Shown here: positions 41,952 to 58,281 of the stretch, one piece after another
Numbering within the stretch: position 1 is the stretch's first letter
Layout of the letters: each line of letters begins with the position of its first letter
Source of the DNA: an uncultured Mycoplasmatota bacterium
GTDB lineage: Bacteria > Bacillota_I > Bacilli_A > RF39 > UBA660
Direction of reading: 5' to 3'
NCBI GenBank assembly: GCA_947649355.1
Contig: CANSRG010000002.1
Coordinates: forward strand, 1-61,823
Length of the DNA stretch: 61,823 bases
Position numbers and translations under genes: made by a program
The notes under the pieces: generated by a model
What the model was told of the DNA's origin: nothing
The model's database searches: none
The model's input: only the letters and a program-made list of their open reading frames with translations

Positions 41952-42731
41952 ATGGATTTAATACACGCGAAGAAAAGTTTAGGGCAAAATTTTTTGAAAG
42001 ATGAAACAATTCTTAAAAAAATTGCGGATAGTTTTTCGACTACAAAAGAAGATTTAATTATTGAAATTGGGCCTGGAAAAGGGGCTTTAACAAAGTATTT
42101 AATTCAAAAGCCTTCTACTACTATTTGTTATGAACTTGATAATCGAATGAAAAGTGTTTTGCTTTCTTTTGAAAATGATCGTTGTCAATTTATTTTTGGA
42201 GATTTTTTAAAACAAGATTTAAGTGTTTTTTCTAAAAATTATCATCATACATATGTAATAGCAAATATTCCTTATTACATAACAACTCCAATTCTAAATC
42301 ATATCATAGAAAGTAATTTGATTGTGGATGGAATGACGATTATGGTTCAAAAGGAGGTAGCACTTCGTTTTACTGCTTTGCCTAAAACTAAAAATTATGG
42401 GTATTATACTGTGTTGTTACAGCATTATTTTGATGCAGAATATTTATTTGATGTTCCACCAAGTGCTTTTAATCCTCCGCCTAATGTGATGAGTAGTGTG
42501 GTTCGTTTTGTAAGAAAGGCATCTATATTAGATATTGATTTTTCTAAATTTCAACAATTTTTGGCTAAGGCTTTTTCTCAAAAGCGAAAAACATTAAAAA
42601 ATAATTTAAAAGATTTTAATTGGAGTAATATTTCAAAAATATTATCTAAATATTCTTTTTTAGAATCTGTACGAGCAGAAGAAATTCCATATGATGTTTT
42701 TGTAGAAATTTTTCTAAATTTAAATGACTAG
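41952..42731 (+). CDS. rsmA: 16S rRNA (adenine1518/1519-N6)-dimethyltransferase
   Basis: KSLGQNFL, EIGPGKGALT and NIPYYITTPI motifs. ATG 41952 is preferred over GTG 41943 on RBS spacing. Confidence 0.93.
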   Translation: MDLIHAKKSLGQNFLKDETILKKIADSFSTTKEDLIIEIGPGKGALTKYLIQKPSTTICYELDNRMKSVLLSFENDRCQFIFGDFLKQDLSVFSKNYHHTYVIANIPYYITTPILNHIIESNLIVDGMTIMVQKEVALRFTALPKTKNYGYYTVLLQHYFDAEYLFDVPPSAFNPPPNVMSSVVRFVRKASILDIDFSKFQQFLAKAFSQKRKTLKNNLKDFNWSNISKILSKYSFLESVRAEEIPYDVFVEIFLNLND

Positions 42732-42776
42732 TCTAAAGTGCTAGTTTTTTTCATATATATATTTTAGGTGAAGCTT

Positions 42777-43052
42777 ATGAATCATCAAGTAGGAGATTTG
42801 GTTACAAGAATTAAGTATAATCATGATGTTGTTTTTAAAATTTTAAATATTAAAGGAGATGTGGCTTATCTAAAAGGAATTTCTGTAAGATTATATGCAG
42901 ATGCTCCTTTAGAAGATTTAGTGAAATATCAAAAAGAAGATCGTATTATAGAAGATGATGAAATGGATTTAAGAACTATAGAAAAAAAAGAATTTTTTTA
43001 TTTGCCTGGAAAAGTATTGCATATTGATGCTGAGTGTTGCTTAAGTAAGTAG
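42777..43052 (+). pseudogene. yabG: 5' fragment of the sporulation protease gene yabG (84 YabG codons + 7 unrelated codons + stop)
   Basis: MNHQVGDLVTRIKYNHDVVFKI...FFYLPGKVLHID parallels the first 87 residues of the intact YabG at 57502. After HID the frame reads AECCLSK and then stops. Canonical rsmA-yabG position. Confidence 0.8.
43020..43033. repeat. left junction core (candidate attL crossover region)
   Basis: CATATTGATG (43020-43029), then cTGA. Identical 10-mer, then gTGA, at 57754-57767. Similarity between the two yabG copies ends here. Confidence 0.55.
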
Positions 43053-43430
43053 AATATAAATTGCCTATAAACCTTTATAAATAAAGGGAAAAATCAATTT
43101 TTTCAAATTTATTATTATATATAAAAAGCACTAAAATTTTTGAGAATTTGGTGTCTTTTTTTTAGATTTTACATACTTACTTAGGGGGTGATGATTGTTA
43201 AGTAACTAATTTTATGTACACATTTTTCTACATTTTTTTAATGTATGAAATGATTTTTGAGGTCATAAATTTTAAAGAGGGAATCATTATGCAAGCCGAA
43301 AAAAGTAGTTATATATATATAATGAAAAGTAAATAATAGATTTTTTTTAGTATTTTGTTTATTCGTAATTTTATGAAAGCTGTTTTATGATTTATGTGCT
43401 TGTTAAGAAGTATAGTCTGGAGGTTAAATT

Positions 43431-45020
43431 GTGAGTAGCTTAACAAATAAAATATATAAAGCAGGTGGGTATTGCAGATTATCAGTAGTTGAAAATGAAG
43501 ATAAAGAAGAAAGTGTTAGTATTACGAATCAAAAAAAGTGTATTGAGGAGTTTGCCAAAAACAATCATATAGAACTTTATGATTTTTATATTGATGATGG
43601 ATTTTCTGGTGGAAATTTTGATAGACCTGGATTTAAGAGATTGATTCATGATATTGAGTGTGGAATTATCAATTGTGTTATTACAAAAGATACTTCAAGA
43701 TTAGGGAGAGATTTTATTGAAACAGGTAATTATATTTATAAATATTTTCCTGAACATGATGTTAGATATATTGCAATACTAGATAATTTTGATACAGAAA
43801 ATCCTAATGAAACTGATGATATTATACCTTTTAAAACAGTTGTTAATGATATGTATTTAAAAGATACCTCTAGGAAGATTAAAAGTGTAAGACATGGACT
43901 TATGAATAAAGGGTTCTATGTCGGTAGTTCCGTTCCTTATGGATATAAACGTTCAGAAGAAGATAATCGTAAGTTTGTTATAGATGAATATGCAGCTAGT
44001 ATTGTAAAAAAAATCTTTAAAATGAAATTAGATGGAATGACAGATAATATGATTGCTAAAGAATTGACGAATGAAGGTATTTTACCACCTAATATATATA
44101 AGGAAAGAAAAATGAATAAAACTGTTACTTCTAATTTGTGGAAAGCATCATCCGTTAAAACGATTTTAAAAAATGAGGTTTATATTGGAACACTCATTCA
44201 AGGAAAATATGAAAGAGTAAGTTTAAAGTCTAAAAAGAAAAGATTACTTCCTAAAAGTAGATGGATTATAAAAAAGAATAATCATGAACCAATTATAGAT
44301 AAAGAAGTGTTTGAGAAAGTTAATAAGGGTTTTAAAGAATCTAAAAGTGATATTAGAGTTAGAAAATATGATTATCTATTAAAAGGTTTAGTGATGTGTG
44401 CAGATTGTAAAAAAAACATGTTAGTTAGAAGATGCAAAAGTCAGAGTAAAAAAACAAAAGATGAAGTATATGCAATTTATTGTTGTAGAACTTATGCTAG
44501 TTATCGAAACGGTGTGTGTAGTATGCACTATTATAGAGAAGATGATTTAAATAAATTGGTATTAGATGAAATTAAAAAATATTTTATAAAGTATTCAAAT
44601 GATAGTATGTTAAGAGAAAAATATAAAGAAATACTATCTAATTCTAATTTATTAGAAGAAACTAAAACTGAGTTAGATTTATCACAGAAAAAATTAAAAG
44701 ATATTGATAAAGCTATAAGTGAACTATATAAGGATAAAACAATTGGTTTAATTACTTCTTTAGAATTTGTATCCATTAAAAATGATTTTGCTAAGGATAA
44801 GCAACAATTAGAAAATAAAATAAGTGAATTAAAAGTAATACTTTGTAATTTGAAAGATAATTTATTAGATGAAAAAACAAAAAATCAAATGATAAAAAAT
44901 TTTTTGATGATTAAAAATCCTACTAAGCAAATGATTGAAACTCTAGTTCATAAAATAACTATTGATGAAAATAAAAATGTAAGAATATATTTCAAATTTC
45001 ATTTAGATGGAGATACGTAA
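43431..45020 (+). CDS. large serine recombinase 1
   Basis: 529 aa, GTG start after GGAGG. Resolvase catalytic domain (YCRLS..., DDGFSGGNFDRPGFKRL, TKDTSRLGRD), recombinase domain, Cys-rich zinc ribbon (CADCKKNM...CC) and a C-terminal coiled coil. Confidence 0.9.
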   Translation: MSSLTNKIYKAGGYCRLSVVENEDKEESVSITNQKKCIEEFAKNNHIELYDFYIDDGFSGGNFDRPGFKRLIHDIECGIINCVITKDTSRLGRDFIETGNYIYKYFPEHDVRYIAILDNFDTENPNETDDIIPFKTVVNDMYLKDTSRKIKSVRHGLMNKGFYVGSSVPYGYKRSEEDNRKFVIDEYAASIVKKIFKMKLDGMTDNMIAKELTNEGILPPNIYKERKMNKTVTSNLWKASSVKTILKNEVYIGTLIQGKYERVSLKSKKKRLLPKSRWIIKKNNHEPIIDKEVFEKVNKGFKESKSDIRVRKYDYLLKGLVMCADCKKNMLVRRCKSQSKKTKDEVYAIYCCRTYASYRNGVCSMHYYREDDLNKLVLDEIKKYFIKYSNDSMLREKYKEILSNSNLLEETKTELDLSQKKLKDIDKAISELYKDKTIGLITSLEFVSIKNDFAKDKQQLENKISELKVILCNLKDNLLDEKTKNQMIKNFLMIKNPTKQMIETLVHKITIDENKNVRIYFKFHLDGDT

Positions 45021-57424: not shown

Positions 57425-57429
57425 TTAAA

Positions 57430-57453
57430 GGATGGTTTTACCATTCTTTTTTT
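57430..57453 (+). terminator. rho-independent terminator of the giant gene
   Basis: GGATGGT-ttt-ACCATTC (7 bp including one G-U) followed by T7. The T-run runs into the TAGTCTA of the right yabG promoter copy. Confidence 0.65.
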
Positions 57454-57501
57454 AGTCTACTTTTTTTTAAATTGTCATATAGTTTAAAGGGAGATGATTA
57501 A

Positions 57502-58281
57502 TTGAACTTTAAAATAGGTGATTTAGTAAGCAGAATTTCTTATAATCATGATATTGTTTTTAAAATTACTAGAATTGTAGATAATAAAGTTTTTTTAAAA
57601 GGGCTTGATTTTAGACTTTATGCAGATGCTAATATAGATGATATTGTAAGTGTTAGTAACTTTTCTCATAGTGATGAGGACATAATTCAAAAAAATGTAA
57701 GAGATATAAAAATAGATAGAAGTAACTATTTTTATTTACCTGGACGTGTACTTCATATTGATGGTGATAGTGAATATTTAGATAGATGTATGAAATTTTA
57801 TGATAGTATGGGAATTCAAGCTAATGGCATTTCATTAGCAGAAGCTGTTATATCTTCTAAAATTTTTGATTTAGTTAAGGAGTATCGTCCTGATATTGTT
57901 GTAATTACTGGACATGATGCATATTTTTCGAAAAAAAATGATAAAAAAGATATAAATAATTATGAAAATACAGGAAACTTTATTTCGGCTATTAAAGAAG
58001 CACGAAAATTTGAAAAAAGTCAAGATAAATTAATTATAATTGCTGGAGCGTGTCAATCAAATTATGAGGAATTAATTAAAGCTGGAGCTAATTTTGCTTC
58101 TAGTCCAAAAAGAATTAATATACATGCTCTTGATCCTGCGATTATTGCATCTTCTATTGCTTTTGCAGATAAAAATCAAAGTATAGATTTAATAAGTATG
58201 ATTGATAAGACAAAATATGGTAGTGAAGGAATGGGTGGAATTATTACTAATGGAACTATGTATGTGGGGTATCCTAGATGA
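57502..58281 (+). CDS. yabG: sporulation-specific protease YabG (intact)
   Basis: 259 aa, TTG start after AGGGAG. Matches B. subtilis YabG by eye: IGD.V.R.SY..D..F.I, YF.[LM]PG[RK]VLH[IL]DGD.EYL, YRPDI[VL]VITGHDAY, GACQS.[YF]E.LI.AGANFASSP.R[IV]NIHALDP. Confidence 0.9.
   Translation: MNFKIGDLVSRISYNHDIVFKITRIVDNKVFLKGLDFRLYADANIDDIVSVSNFSHSDEDIIQKNVRDIKIDRSNYFYLPGRVLHIDGDSEYLDRCMKFYDSMGIQANGISLAEAVISSKIFDLVKEYRPDIVVITGHDAYFSKKNDKKDINNYENTGNFISAIKEARKFEKSQDKLIIIAGACQSNYEELIKAGANFASSPKRINIHALDPAIIASSIAFADKNQSIDLISMIDKTKYGSEGMGGIITNGTMYVGYPR
57754..57767. repeat. right junction core (candidate attR crossover region)
   Basis: CATATTGATG then gTGA inside yabG codons for H-I-D-G-D. Partner of 43020-43033. 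Confidence 0.55.

What the first reader, a model, noticed from the sequence alone, without database searches (positions are those of the whole stretch)
42729..57767. Two-recombinase cargo island bracketed by diverged ~0.3-kb copies of the yabG promoter and 5' coding region
Seen in sequence: right after rsmA (the Bacillus ksgA-yabG-veg position), 42777-43029 encodes only the first 84 residues of a YabG-type sporulation protease. The frame then reads 7 unrelated codons and stops at 43052. About 14.7 kb further on, 57502-58281 encodes a complete 259-aa YabG. Its first 87 residues are a diverged paralogue of the left fragment, with roughly half the residues identical in a by-eye alignment.
Both copies converge on the identical 10-mer CATATTGATG (43020-43029 / 57754-57763), followed by nTGA. 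These are the codons for H-I-D of the conserved PG[KR]VLH[IL]DGD motif. Between the copies lie only two large serine recombinase genes and one giant gene.
Inference, model A (slightly favoured): a serine-recombinase element integrated inside the yabG ORF. Unlike skin- or SPbeta-type sporulation-gene interrupters that split their target, it carries a surrogate promoter plus N-terminal 87 codons, so a chimeric but full-length yabG is always present. Excision would swap both the N-terminal domain and the promoter. Weak support comes from two imperfect dyads around the shared TG: the reconstructed attB has CATATT...AATATT, and the reconstructed attP has TACTT-N11-TG-N10-AAGTA.
Model B: the crossover is at the shared TAGTCTA (42729 / 57453), which overlaps the rsmA stop codon. 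In that case the right-hand yabG is native and the left fragment is a relic carried in from a previous host.
Either way one copy is foreign, and the element has a history of targeting yabG.
Basis: partly seen in the sequence, partly recalled or inferred. Interest (0 to 1): 0.85.

Follow-up and report, generated by a model that had tools for sequence, protein, structure and literature searches.

The report
Stranded recombinase element beside intact yabG
The left half-gene is the scar of a mobile element family that inserts into the sporulation protease gene yabG, but this copy has lost its right end and appears stuck, while the complete yabG downstream is the ordinary native gene and not a spare part carried by the element.

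Summary
The sequence observation is confirmed. The favoured interpretation is not.

- **Left junction.** 43026-43028 is a genuine attL of a widespread family. These elements carry two tandem large serine recombinases (LSRs) and split yabG at the Asp codon of H-I-D-G-D. I found at least 9 distinct elements and at least 15 clusters of truncated YabG fragments. One conjugative element (ICE) occurs as attP and as attR in two different hosts.
- **No surrogate 5' end.** No other member carries one.
- **This copy is stripped.** It has no cargo. The conserved 42-aa ORF upstream of LSR1 is broken by two deletions. Only the outer part of the attR arm survives just after LSR2 (about 46710-46737). The inner 15 nt and the core are gone.
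- **Outside the element.** The giant gene and the full yabG lie beyond that remnant.
- **The right yabG is native.** It is collinear with its promoter in the element-free relative L003. The same sequence occurs intact on many other contigs, and split by other elements.
- **Discordant flanks.** RsmA is 42% identical to L003 while YabG is about 90%. So the island sits on a recombination joint, or less likely an assembly joint.

[quoted passage not shown] Models A and B are both rejected as written.

The parts
40502..42731 (+). Left chromosomal flank: tatD (40502-41281), rnmV (41315-41869), rsmA (41943-42731). It is phylogenetically discordant with the right flank.
   Evidence: Pfam. RsmA is 42% and TatD 48% identical to L003, against 72-99% and 66-94% expected for locus pairs with this YabG identity. 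The best matches are L071 and L079.
42732..42776 (+). Promoter of the left yabG copy. It is sigma-K-like, with TAGTCTA at 42729-42735 and a -10-like CATATATATA at 42752-42761.
   Evidence: The same architecture lies upstream of yabG in 65 of 84 loci. The sigma-K assignment is inferred from the consensus only.
42777..43052 (+). yabG 5' relic: codons 1-84 of a foreign-lineage YabG, then 7 element-encoded codons (AECCLSK) and a stop.
   Evidence: Pfam U57 profile positions 1-64 only. It is 46% identical to the right copy. The nearest homologues (71-72%) are also about 92 aa and end in the identical AECCLSK tail. The junction is reproduced in 10 independent assemblies.
42995..43055 (+). attL (B arm, core, P' arm). 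The crossover lies within GAT at 43026-43028, and the P' arm is GCTGAGTGTTGCTTAAGTAAGTAG.
   Evidence: The P' arm is conserved in L082 and occurs only once in the window. The crossover is bounded by comparing attP with attR in two hosts and by comparing L082 attL with attR.
43029..43430 (+). Element-internal left region. 43029-43218 is homologous to the P' side of L082. 43289-43336 is the remnant of the conserved 41-43-aa ORF, destroyed by deletions of 10-12 bp and about 58 bp.
   Evidence: blastn against L082. Small-ORF translations. DNA alignment showing the two deletions, shared with strain L093.
43431..45020 (+). LSR1, a large serine recombinase of 529 aa. It is intact and keeps every residue that is invariant across the family.
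   Evidence: Pfam Resolvase, Recombinase and Zn_ribbon_recom. Alignment A3. dN/dS 0.15 against strain L092.
45022..46572 (+). LSR2, a paralogous large serine recombinase of 516 aa. It is intact.
   Evidence: Pfam. The exact product is on record from start 45022. Alignment A5. dN/dS 0.37.
46623..46737 (+). Remnant of the right end of the element: the last about 14 codons of a third, truncated resolvase ORF, then the outer part of the attR P arm (..AAATCAATATTTTCTTGTTATTTAT). The inner about 15 nt and the core are missing.
   Evidence: Alignment with the attR regions of L094, L082, L088 and L090. blastn against L094. blastx. No full P arm anywhere in the window.
46738..46969 (+). AT-rich spacer upstream of the giant gene, with no homology to the element family. 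Window 46567-46901, which overlaps part of this spacer, is missing in strain L093.
46970..57424 (+). Giant secreted protein gene (3484 aa; M26 N-terminal region, dockerin). It lies outside the element and is a mosaic: 61-80% identical to L001 and L002 up to about 54.68 kb, and 92-99% identical to L001 beyond that.
   Evidence: Pfam. A homologous gene sits directly upstream of yabG in L001 and L002. Identity profiles.
57445..57501 (+). Native yabG promoter region (TAGTCTA at 57453-57459; -10-like CATATAGTT at 57476-57484).
   Evidence: Homology with the element-free relative L003 starts at 57445. Promoter architecture.
57502..58281 (+). Complete native yabG, carrying an unoccupied attB (core GAT at 57760-57762).
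   Evidence: TIGR02855 above its cutoff. The exact protein is on 59 contigs, and the same 90% cluster holds split 5' and 3' fragments of this same gene.
58278..61243 (+). Right chromosomal flank: veg, spoVG, yabP, yabQ, divIC, tilS. These are 97-100% identical to L001.

Best explanation
**What is there.** 42777-46737 is the immobilised remnant of a yabG-splitting mobile element. The remnant consists of attL, a broken accessory ORF, two intact tandem large serine recombinase (LSR) genes, and a truncated attR arm.

**How the family works.**
- Shown: members integrate by site-specific recombination within the GAT (Asp) codon of the H-I-D-G-D motif of yabG.
- Shown: this leaves a 5' fragment of about 90 aa on the left. 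The LSR pair sits directly upstream of the 3' fragment on the right.
- Inferred, by analogy with yin, skin and SPbeta: excision restores yabG.

**This copy.**
- Shown: the right junction no longer exists. After the outer part of the P arm, the sequence runs into unrelated DNA, then a giant surface-protein gene, then a complete yabG with its own promoter.
- Inferred: the element can no longer excise, the left fragment is a dead relic, and YabG is made from the intact downstream gene.
- Shown: that downstream gene is the native, unoccupied attB allele of the lineage the right flank belongs to.

**History (inferred, about 0.4-0.5 confidence).**
- A rare lineage carrying a classical yabG::element insertion had everything to the right of LSR2 replaced by DNA from a different, commoner lineage. 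The incoming DNA held the giant gene, an intact yabG, veg and spoVG.
- One end of the replacement was an illegitimate joint in or next to attR.
- That single event both trapped the element and restored an uninterrupted yabG. Small deletions followed.
For: **1. Family and target.**
- LSR1 homologues at 50-88% identity are always paired with an LSR2 homologue. Wherever the contig reaches far enough, a yabG 3' part follows, starting at residue 84-87, then veg and spoVG.
- A yabG 5' fragment lies on the other side in L082, L090 and L175.
- A conjugative element with an identical LSR1 is seen as attP (L176) and as attR in two different hosts (L177, L178). All three are identical through CAGCAGATGG and diverge at the next base.
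- At least 15 clusters of about 90-aa YabG fragments end in HID plus an element-encoded tail.
- Of 160 loci holding LSRs at 36% identity or less (41% or less for the metagenome set), none is next to yabG.

**2. attL is genuine.** The P' arm and 190 bp beyond it are conserved with L082.

**3. The right end is lost.** The alignment with attR of L094 and L082 stops about 15 nt before the core. There is no P arm and no second yabG 3' part in the window.

**4. Decay.** The 41-43-aa ORF, conserved in L082, L088, L090, L094, L175 and L176 (with a same-sized 42-aa ORF at the same position in L269), is broken here and in strain L093. L093 has a further 335-bp deletion. There is no cargo.

**5. The right yabG is native.**
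- L003 is collinear from 57445 onward at 84% DNA identity. It has an amylase gene upstream and no recombinase.
- Its N-terminal 87 residues are 84% identical to L003, inside the 75-100% range expected.
- The identical N-terminus occurs as an attL-side fragment with other element tails (P0296, P0299). The identical C-terminus occurs as 3' fragments (P0297, P0300).

**6. Discordant flanks.**
- Left-block proteins are rare: RsmA and LSR clusters have about 7 members each.
- Right-block proteins are common: exact YabG on 59 contigs, SpoVG on 242.

**7. No excision product.** No full-length YabG with the left-type N-terminus was found among 5.8 billion proteins.

**8. Reproducibility.** The left junction through the start of the giant gene is reproduced in several independent assemblies.
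Against: - Both LSR genes are intact, keep every family-invariant residue, and show dN/dS of 0.15 and 0.37 between strains. That is unexpected for a long-dead element. It could reflect recent trapping, gene conversion from mobile relatives (dS is higher than in the flanks), or a retained function.
- Only this contig links the giant gene's N-terminal two thirds (tied to the element in L081, L093 and L183) to its C-terminal third plus the full yabG (tied together in L001 and L002). An assembly chimera at about 54.68 kb cannot be excluded.
- I could not read what lies upstream of the giant gene in L001 and L002. Absence of the element there is inferred only from contig lengths in cluster tables.
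- Which flank is foreign, and how the joint formed, are not established.
Confidence: 0.68

Rival explanations
1. Model A. The whole of 43030-57763 is one active element that carries a surrogate yabG promoter and N-terminal 87 codons at its right end. A chimeric full-length yabG is therefore always present, and excision swaps the promoter and N-terminus.
For: Both copies end at the same codons, which are the true crossover codons of the family. The LSR genes are intact and under some purifying selection.
Against: - No family member carries yabG sequence next to its attP or attR. The P arm is a conserved non-yabG sequence.
- A remnant of that P arm lies right after LSR2, 11 kb upstream of the right copy.
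- The right copy is collinear with its promoter and 3' part in element-free L003. It is also the chromosomal 5' fragment in strains split by other elements.
- Excision would need attL x attB recombination, which characterised LSRs do not perform (my own knowledge of phiC31-type integrases).
- No chimeric product is found in protein databases.
- The model does not explain the discordant flanks.
Confidence: 0.03
2. Model B. The element, including the left yabG fragment, inserted as a unit between rsmA and the native yabG by a crossover at the shared TAGTCTA.
For: The right yabG is native and the left fragment comes from another lineage.
Against: - TAGTCTA is part of the conserved yabG promoter and is also present in L001, L002, L009 and L010.
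- The family's crossover is inside the ORF.
- rsmA and at least 28 kb further left share the foreign affinity of the fragment, so the boundary is not at 42729.
Confidence: 0.03
3. Assembly chimera. The contig joins two co-occurring organisms inside the giant gene at about 54.68 kb, where a 1.5-kb segment is 94-100% conserved between species. The relic and the full yabG would then not be on one molecule.
For: - Identity to L001 jumps from 61-88% to 92-100% at about 54.68 kb, with a rise in GC.
- Left-block proteins are rare and right-block proteins abundant in public assemblies.
- No independent contig crosses 49.75-54.7 kb.
Against: - The giant gene is collinear and in frame across the point.
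- The element-to-giant joint is real in at least 3 samples.
- The homologous giant gene sits directly upstream of a full yabG in L001 and L002. By synteny, the organism that owns the relic would probably also have a full yabG after its giant gene.
- Natural recombination at a hyperconserved segment would give the same pattern.
Confidence: 0.17
4. Domesticated recombinases. The LSR pair is kept because it still does something useful here, such as recombining attL with another site or acting on incoming elements at the intact attB.
For: Open reading frames are intact in all strains seen. dN/dS is 0.15 and 0.37 over dS of about 0.1, although the accessory ORF and attR were already lost before the strains split.
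Against: - No partner site exists in the window.
- The higher dS in the LSR genes than in the flanks fits gene conversion from mobile copies better than selection in place.
- LSR2 shows relaxed constraint compared with mobile members (0.37 against 0.11).
Confidence: 0.07

Closest known systems
yin element of Clostridium botulinum V73 (Douillard et al. 2023, PMC10747680)
   Same: It is an element encoding a large serine recombinase and inserted inside the yabG ORF. It has attL and attR, a circular excised form, and excision restores yabG. A candidate small recombination directionality factor (RDF) and a sigma-K-type promoter have been proposed.
   Different: - yin is a prophage with a single LSR next to the 5' fragment, and it was reported from one strain only. 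Its authors state that no other element disrupting yabG existed in public genomes.
- The family here has two tandem LSRs next to the 3' fragment and a conserved 41-43-aa ORF.
- Its cargo varies: a conjugative element, phage-like genes, or small metabolic, toxin-antitoxin (PemK) and sigma-factor islands.
- It has many hosts among uncultured low-GC gut Bacilli.
- The window's copy is a trapped remnant next to an intact yabG.
- Not tested: sequence relatedness to the yin recombinase, and whether the insertion codon is the same (the att sequences are held only as images).
Sporulation-gene intervening elements: skin (sigK, SpoIVCA), SPbeta (spsM, SprA and SprB), vfbin, vrin, gin (PMC4191935, PMC5595907, PMC5499854)
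   Same: These are LSR-encoding elements that split a mother-cell sporulation gene and rejoin it by excision. Many have decayed into non-infectious relics that keep the recombinase.
   Different: - The target here is yabG, which is not mentioned in PMC4191935.
- There is a recombinase pair instead of one.
- In the window the interrupted copy can no longer be rejoined, because its 3' half and attR are gone.
- Developmental timing is untested.
SCCmec CcrA/CcrB recombinase pair
   Same: Two paralogous large serine recombinase genes sit in tandem at one end of an integrative element with exchangeable cargo.
   Different: NCBIfam CcrB and CcrC scores are 108 and 96 bits against cutoffs of 900, so this is not that family. 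The target is different (rlmH 3' end against the yabG interior), and so are the hosts.
TnpX (Tn4451) and SprA, the nearest solved structures
   Same: These are the best PDB sequence matches to LSR1: TnpX catalytic domain at E=1.6e-25 and SprA (YokA) at E=8e-20 over residues 13-470.
   Different: They are distant relatives only. No phage record reaches more than 36% identity.

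Membership tests
Large serine recombinase integrative element | Recombinase with Resolvase, Recombinase and zinc-ribbon domains and a catalytic serine | tested here: met
   Both LSR1 and LSR2 qualify. The R-L-S nucleophile motif and all family-invariant residues are present.
Large serine recombinase integrative element | attL and attR junctions that share only a short core, with a matching attP and attB | tested here: inconclusive
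   The family meets it: attP in L176, attR in L177 and L178, and attL plus attR in L082, L090 and L175. The window has attL and an attB but no attR; only the outer P arm remains.
yabG-splitting LSR-pair elements (family defined here) | LSR1 and LSR2 in tandem, co-oriented with yabG, at 50% identity or more to the family | tested here: met
   88% and 82% to L094, 81% and 77% to L082, down to 50% and 43% for L176.
yabG-splitting LSR-pair elements (family defined here) | yabG 5' fragment ending at H-I-D, followed by the conserved P' arm | tested here: met
   Window 43020-43052 against L082. The AECCLSK tail is shared with P0122 and P0123.
yabG-splitting LSR-pair elements (family defined here) | P arm, core and yabG 3' fragment within about 300 bp downstream of LSR2 | tested here: not met
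   The arm is truncated at about 46737 and there is no yabG 3' fragment. The window therefore holds a defective derivative, not a complete member.
yabG-splitting LSR-pair elements (family defined here) | Intact 41-43-aa ORF 57-84 bp upstream of LSR1 | tested here: not met
   Only a 15-codon remnant is left after two deletions.
Developmentally excised intervening element (skin, SPbeta or yin type) | Interrupts a mother-cell-expressed sporulation gene | tested here: met
   yabG (TIGR02855). Mother-cell, sigma-K-dependent expression is taken from PMC10747680.
Developmentally excised intervening element (skin, SPbeta or yin type) | Excision during sporulation rejoins the gene | not testable with these tools
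   This needs culture or time-resolved reads. For the window's copy it is structurally impossible without attR and a 3' half.
Self-complementing integrative element (model A) | A surrogate gene end lies next to attP in the element and in its relatives | tested here: not met
   The P arms of 7 relatives and one attP carry no yabG 5' sequence.
Self-complementing integrative element (model A) | Element-free relatives carry the left copy as their 5' end | tested here: not met
   L003 and all 80 loci match the right copy better where they are close relatives: 84% against 46% for L003.
SCC-type CcrAB cassette | Recombinases reach the CcrA, CcrB or CcrC equivalog score | tested here: not met
   108 and 96 bits against cutoffs of 900.

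The most novel reading that the evidence does not exclude
The still-intact LSR pair recombines attL (43026) with the attB inside the downstream yabG (57760), perhaps in the mother cell. That would delete the 14.7-kb segment holding the recombinases and the giant surface-protein gene, and would create a chimeric YabG with a different promoter and N-terminal domain. It would be an attL x attB developmental switch that no characterised serine integrase performs.
Probability: 0.04. Interest if true: 0.85.

Novelty: new member of a known kind. Interest (0 to 1): 0.45.

Why it matters
- **A recurrent target.** In 2023 the only known element inside yabG (yin) was described as unique. The relatives recovered here show that yabG's H-I-D-G-D codons are a recurrent landing site for a diverse family, including a conjugative element, in uncultured spore-forming gut Bacilli.
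- **Possible tools.** The family offers new recombinase-pair and att-site sets, plus a candidate 42-aa accessory factor, for study or engineering.
- **How interruptions end.** The window's copy is a natural example of how such an interruption can end. The element loses its right end and becomes stranded, while an uninterrupted target gene is supplied from another lineage.
- **A caution.** A half-gene next to a whole gene need not mean a self-complementing element. It can mark a recombination joint, or a chimeric contig.

Tried and rejected
- **Exact look-up of LSR2 from 45007** was not on record. The real start is 45022.
- **Exact look-up of the giant protein** was not on record, so the whole island has no independent copy.
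- **Metagenome scan with the LSR1 alignment** returned only 32-46% relatives because the patterns were too generic. I used them as a negative control: 0 of 80 are next to yabG.
- **Viral-contig scans.** The single-protein scan found nothing. The alignment scan gave 4 short family contigs and 76 unrelated LSRs. A 34-mer from the giant gene found nothing.
- **Search for a decayed yabG 3' remnant** after LSR2 by blastx found nothing convincing. There is no second yabG 3' part in the window.
- **Search for a second P or P' arm** in the window found none. The CAGCAGATGG at 52389 lacks the rest of the arm and is taken as chance.
- **Giant gene as a paralogue** of the two other giant genes in the window: no similarity.
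- **Giant gene as family cargo:** rejected, because it lies beyond the P-arm remnant and sits upstream of yabG in L001 and L002 without a family LSR on record for those contigs.
- **Which flank is foreign.** GyrA and cluster sizes suggest the left 46 kb is the rare backbone, but this is not proven.
- **Sigma-E or sigma-K promoter upstream of the small ORF:** the match was too weak to claim.
- **Paper tools** failed on seven calls before working. The yin att sequences are only held as images.

Full report
**1. Observation**

The ORF map, Pfam and NCBIfam confirm the layout:
- tatD, rnmV, rsmA (ends 42731)
- a 91-codon ORF (42777-43052) that matches only the first 64 positions of the YabG profile
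- two large serine recombinase genes: LSR1 43431-45020 and LSR2 45022-46572
- a 3484-aa secreted protein gene (46970-57424; M26 N-terminal region, dockerin)
- a complete yabG (57502-58281; TIGR02855 287 bits against a cutoff of 270)
- veg, spoVG, yabP, yabQ, divIC

The fragment and the N-terminus of the full gene are 46% identical (E=1e-26). DNA similarity ends right after the shared CATATTGATG. GC is about 25% throughout, with no compositional island.

The left junction through LSR1 and LSR2 is reproduced at 99.4-100% in ten other assemblies from different samples. Three contigs continue into the giant gene: L081, L183, and L093 of a 96.6% diverged strain.

**2. What the recombinase pair is**

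A homology search with LSR1 gave a graded family from 97% down to 50%. I looked at the genomic context of homologues at 88, 86, 81, 66, 66, 60 and 51% identity.

- LSR1 is always followed by an LSR2 homologue.
- Wherever the contig continues, a yabG 3' part starting at residue 84-87 follows within about 80-300 bp. After it come veg, spoVG, yabP and divIC.
- Where the left side is visible (L082, L090, L175), rsmA is followed, with or without an intervening gene, by a yabG 5' fragment of 94-102 codons, then 2-5 kb of cargo.

These are therefore classical gene-splitting insertions. The recombinase pair sits at the right end.

Cargo differs between members:
- small unannotated genes (L082)
- a racemase (L090)
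- glycosyltransferase, kinase, radical-SAM and NUDIX genes (L175)
- a PemK toxin and a sigma factor (L269)
- phage-like and RHS genes (L088)
- in the 51% member, a conjugative element with TraG/VirB4-type ATPases, ParAB, sortase and pilin, SSB, and restriction systems (L176-L179)

That last element has an identical LSR1 in three settings. Downstream of LSR2, the sequence continues into yabG 3' of two different hosts (L177/L179 and L178) or into the other end of the element (L176, the attP form). All three are identical through CAGCAGATGG and differ from the next base. Comparing L082 attL (..CATATAGATA|CTGAG..) with its attR (..CAGCAGATG|GTGAT..) puts the crossover within AGAT, which includes the Asp codon of H-I-D.

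A search with the left fragment returned almost only short YabG N-termini of 89-126 aa. They end in HID plus an element-encoded tail. Several tail types occur (AECCLSK, TECSLSK, GDEVQEIKVA, AD...), and one of them is the P' arm of the conjugative element.

As a control, I examined 160 loci whose LSRs are only distantly related: 36% identity or less in the viral set and 41% or less in the metagenome set. None is next to yabG.

**3. Anatomy of the window's copy against complete members**

blastn against L082 gives four matching blocks:

| L082 | Window | Content |
|---|---|---|
| 6397-6624 | 42990-43218 | attL and P' side |
| 9706-9802 | 43208-43302 | upstream of small ORF |
| 9881-13159 | 43315-46571 | LSR1 and LSR2, 82% |
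| 13239 onward | 57759 onward | yabG 3' part |

So the window lacks L082's 3-kb cargo. It has 11.2 kb where L082 has an 80-bp P arm.

- **Right end.** Aligning the DNA after LSR2 with four attR regions shows two remnants: the last codons of a third, truncated resolvase ORF, and the outer part of the P arm (AAATCAATATTTTCTTGTTATTTAT against AAATCTATTTTTCCAGTTACTTAT in L094). The inner CAAAAGACAGCAGATG and everything beyond are missing.
- **No spare sites.** No full P arm, no second P' arm and no second yabG 3' part exist in the window.
- **Accessory ORF.** A 41-43-aa ORF (consensus M..K.EELVLCIYD..G.SI.EKILEVF.KYIKSSLQN) lies 57-84 bp upstream of LSR1 in L082, L088, L090, L094, L175 and L176, and L269 has a same-sized 42-aa ORF at the same position. 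In the window and in L093 it is cut to 15 codons by two deletions.
- **Further decay.** L093 has lost a further 335 bp after LSR2.
- **Recombinases.** The two LSR genes are intact and keep every invariant residue. Between strains, dN/dS is 0.15 for LSR1 and 0.37 for LSR2. Their dS is 0.09-0.13, higher than the 0.006-0.046 of the flanking genes.

**4. Which yabG copy is native**

A genome scan with the full YabG gave 80 loci.

- In most of them rsmA is 44-130 bp upstream of yabG. In others, 0.7-5.8 kb of ordinary genes (amylase, LysM, PG-binding, AMP-binding, surface Ig) fill that spacer.
- None holds a family recombinase within 10 kb upstream.
- L003 has 88% YabG identity, an amylase gene upstream and no recombinase. 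It is collinear with the window from 57445, 57 bp upstream of the start, to its contig end, at 84% DNA identity.
- Across about 1900 locus pairs, pairs with 90-100% identity in the YabG C-terminal part have 75-100% identity in the N-terminal 87 residues. The window's right copy against L003 gives 90% and 84%, which is normal. The left fragment is 37-51% identical to all 80 loci.
- The cluster look-up shows the exact right-hand YabG on 59 contigs and a one-residue variant on 107.
- The same 90% cluster holds 5' fragments with this very N-terminus ending HIDTDCPLSN... (38 contigs) or HIDTDEFLSN... (14 contigs). It also holds 3' fragments identical to the window's C-terminus (30 and 12 contigs).

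The right copy is therefore the native gene and a live attB. Other elements of the same kind occupy it in other strains.

The shared TAGTCTA of model B is part of a promoter architecture found upstream of yabG across the clade: xCTA, a T-run, then CATAnnnT[AT]. The CATAnnnT[AT] motif occurs in 65 of 84 loci, and TAGTCTA itself in L001, L002, L009 and L010.

**5. The flanks do not match**

In the same regression, pairs with 90-100% YabG C-terminal identity have 72-99% RsmA and 66-94% TatD identity. The window against L003 gives 42% and 48%.

- **Left side.** All left-side core genes that can be compared (yaaT, yabB, pth, mfd, tatD, rnmV, rsmA; 14472-42731) are closest to L071 and L079, at 47-69%. 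To the loci closest on the right they are only about 40-50% identical.
- **Right side.** The right-side genes are 97-100% identical to L001. They follow the YabG ranking for at least 10 kb in L002.
- **Inside the giant gene.** Identity to L001 and L002 is 61-80% up to about 54.68 kb, then 92-99% to L001. L001 and L002 are 76-98% identical to each other throughout.

The window therefore has three zones, with joints at about 46.74 kb and about 54.68 kb.

Left-zone proteins are rare in public data. RsmA and LSR clusters have about 7 members, and the GyrA best hits at 90-93% are clusters of 1-8 members. Right-zone proteins are common.

No family LSR and no left-type RsmA is on record for a contig of the length of L001's or L002's. 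This suggests, indirectly, that giant-yabG exists there without the relic.

**6. Interpretation**

- **Shown.** The attL is genuine and the family's mode of insertion is established. The right end is lost and the accessory ORF is broken. The right yabG is native. The flanks are discordant.
- **Inferred: mobility.** The element is immobile, because attL has no attR partner.
- **Inferred: history.** A rare lineage with a classical yabG::element insertion had the DNA to the right of LSR2 replaced by DNA from the commoner clade. The incoming DNA carried the giant gene, an intact yabG, and the genes to its right. One illegitimate end lay in or next to attR. Recombination at the hyperconserved 54.68-56.0 kb segment followed. 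The reverse direction of transfer is possible.
- **Not excluded.** An assembly chimera at 54.68 kb (about 0.17).
- **Why the recombinases survive.** Recent trapping or gene conversion from mobile relatives best explains the intact, constrained genes. A retained function is not excluded.

**7. Comparison with what is known**

- **yin.** The nearest described system is the yin element of C. botulinum V73. It is a prophage with one LSR inside yabG, it excises as a circle and it restores yabG. Its authors found no other yabG-disrupting element in public genomes as of November 2023.
- **Other intervening elements.** Abe et al. 2014 list skin, SPbeta, vfbin and vrin, and do not mention yabG.
- **How this family differs.** It has the recombinase pair at the attR side, a small conserved ORF, conjugative and non-phage cargo, and a wide host range in uncultured gut Bacilli.
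- **Not Ccr.** It is not a Ccr family member, scoring 108 and 96 bits against cutoffs of 900.
- **Nearest structures.** The nearest solved structures are TnpX and SprA. No phage record exceeds 36% identity.

**8. Verdict**

The attractive mechanism, a self-complementing element that swaps the promoter and N-terminus, is not what is there. The window holds a stranded remnant of a yabG-splitting two-recombinase element beside the native, unoccupied yabG, and it sits on a joint between DNA of two lineages. Interest is moderate. It rests mainly on the family (a new member of a known kind that widens a case thought unique) and on the trapped-element history.

Noticed in passing
window 22151-40489: An 18-kb type VII secretion-like toxin island lies between metG and tatD. 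It holds a DUF87 ATPase, a 1532-aa FtsK/SpoIIIE (EssC-like) ATPase, a WXG100 protein, a 2784-aa protein with ADP-ribosyltransferase and HD domains, and a DUF4176 protein. It has almost no counterpart in the 80 related loci.
   Followed up: partly
window 54680-56000: This 1.3-1.5-kb segment of the giant gene is richer in GC (about 0.32). It is 94-100% identical in the window, L001 and L002, although the core genes of L002 are only 85-90% identical. It looks like a recombining module and marks the identity jump against L001.
   Followed up: partly
L088 13214-13609; L094 3726-4172; L175 13232-13444; L190 and L191; window 46638-46679: A third resolvase ORF, truncated to the N-terminal catalytic domain, sits between LSR2 and attR in several complete elements. 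In L175 it is fused in frame to the yabG 3' part. The window keeps only about 14 codons.
   Followed up: partly
L176 against L177, L178, L179 (13060-13260): One conjugative element with an identical LSR1 was caught in the attP form and integrated in the yabG of two different hosts. The protein is on record in 153 blocks of the collection, so the element is common.
   Followed up: yes
L082 9789-9917 and equivalents in L088, L090, L094, L175, L176, L269: A conserved 34-43-aa ORF lies just upstream of LSR1, with a conserved upstream motif (TTCTACATTTTTTTAATGTATGAAAT...TCATAA). It is a candidate recombination directionality factor or regulator. It has no Pfam or NCBIfam match.
   Followed up: partly
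about 75 nt upstream of yabG in L001-L090: A conserved promoter-like architecture (xCTA, a T-run, CATAnnnT[AT], GGAGATGAT) lies upstream of yabG in 65 of 84 loci. It is consistent with a sigma-K-type promoter.
   Followed up: partly
rsmA-yabG spacer in L003, L013, L015, L016, L018, L024, L029, L042, L063, L067, L080: The spacer is a variable slot holding 0.7-5.8 kb of unrelated ordinary genes: amylase, LysM and PG-binding proteins, an AMP-binding enzyme, a surface Ig-like/NlpC protein, and an AAA ATPase.
   Followed up: partly
window 43431-46572 against L092: Synonymous divergence between strains is 2-20 times higher in the two recombinase genes (0.09-0.13) than in tatD, rnmV, rsmA and the yabG fragment (0.006-0.046). 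This hints at gene conversion from other element copies.
   Followed up: no
L181 and L182 (contig ends at window 43147 and 43106): Two long contigs, one of 62 kb, stop 55-95 bp after the stop codon of the fragment, inside the conserved P' side. This suggests an assembly branch there, perhaps strains with different cargo.
   Followed up: no
window 20318-20503 and 10259-10339: A T-box leader lies upstream of metG, and there is an SRP RNA gene. Both are ordinary.
   Followed up: no
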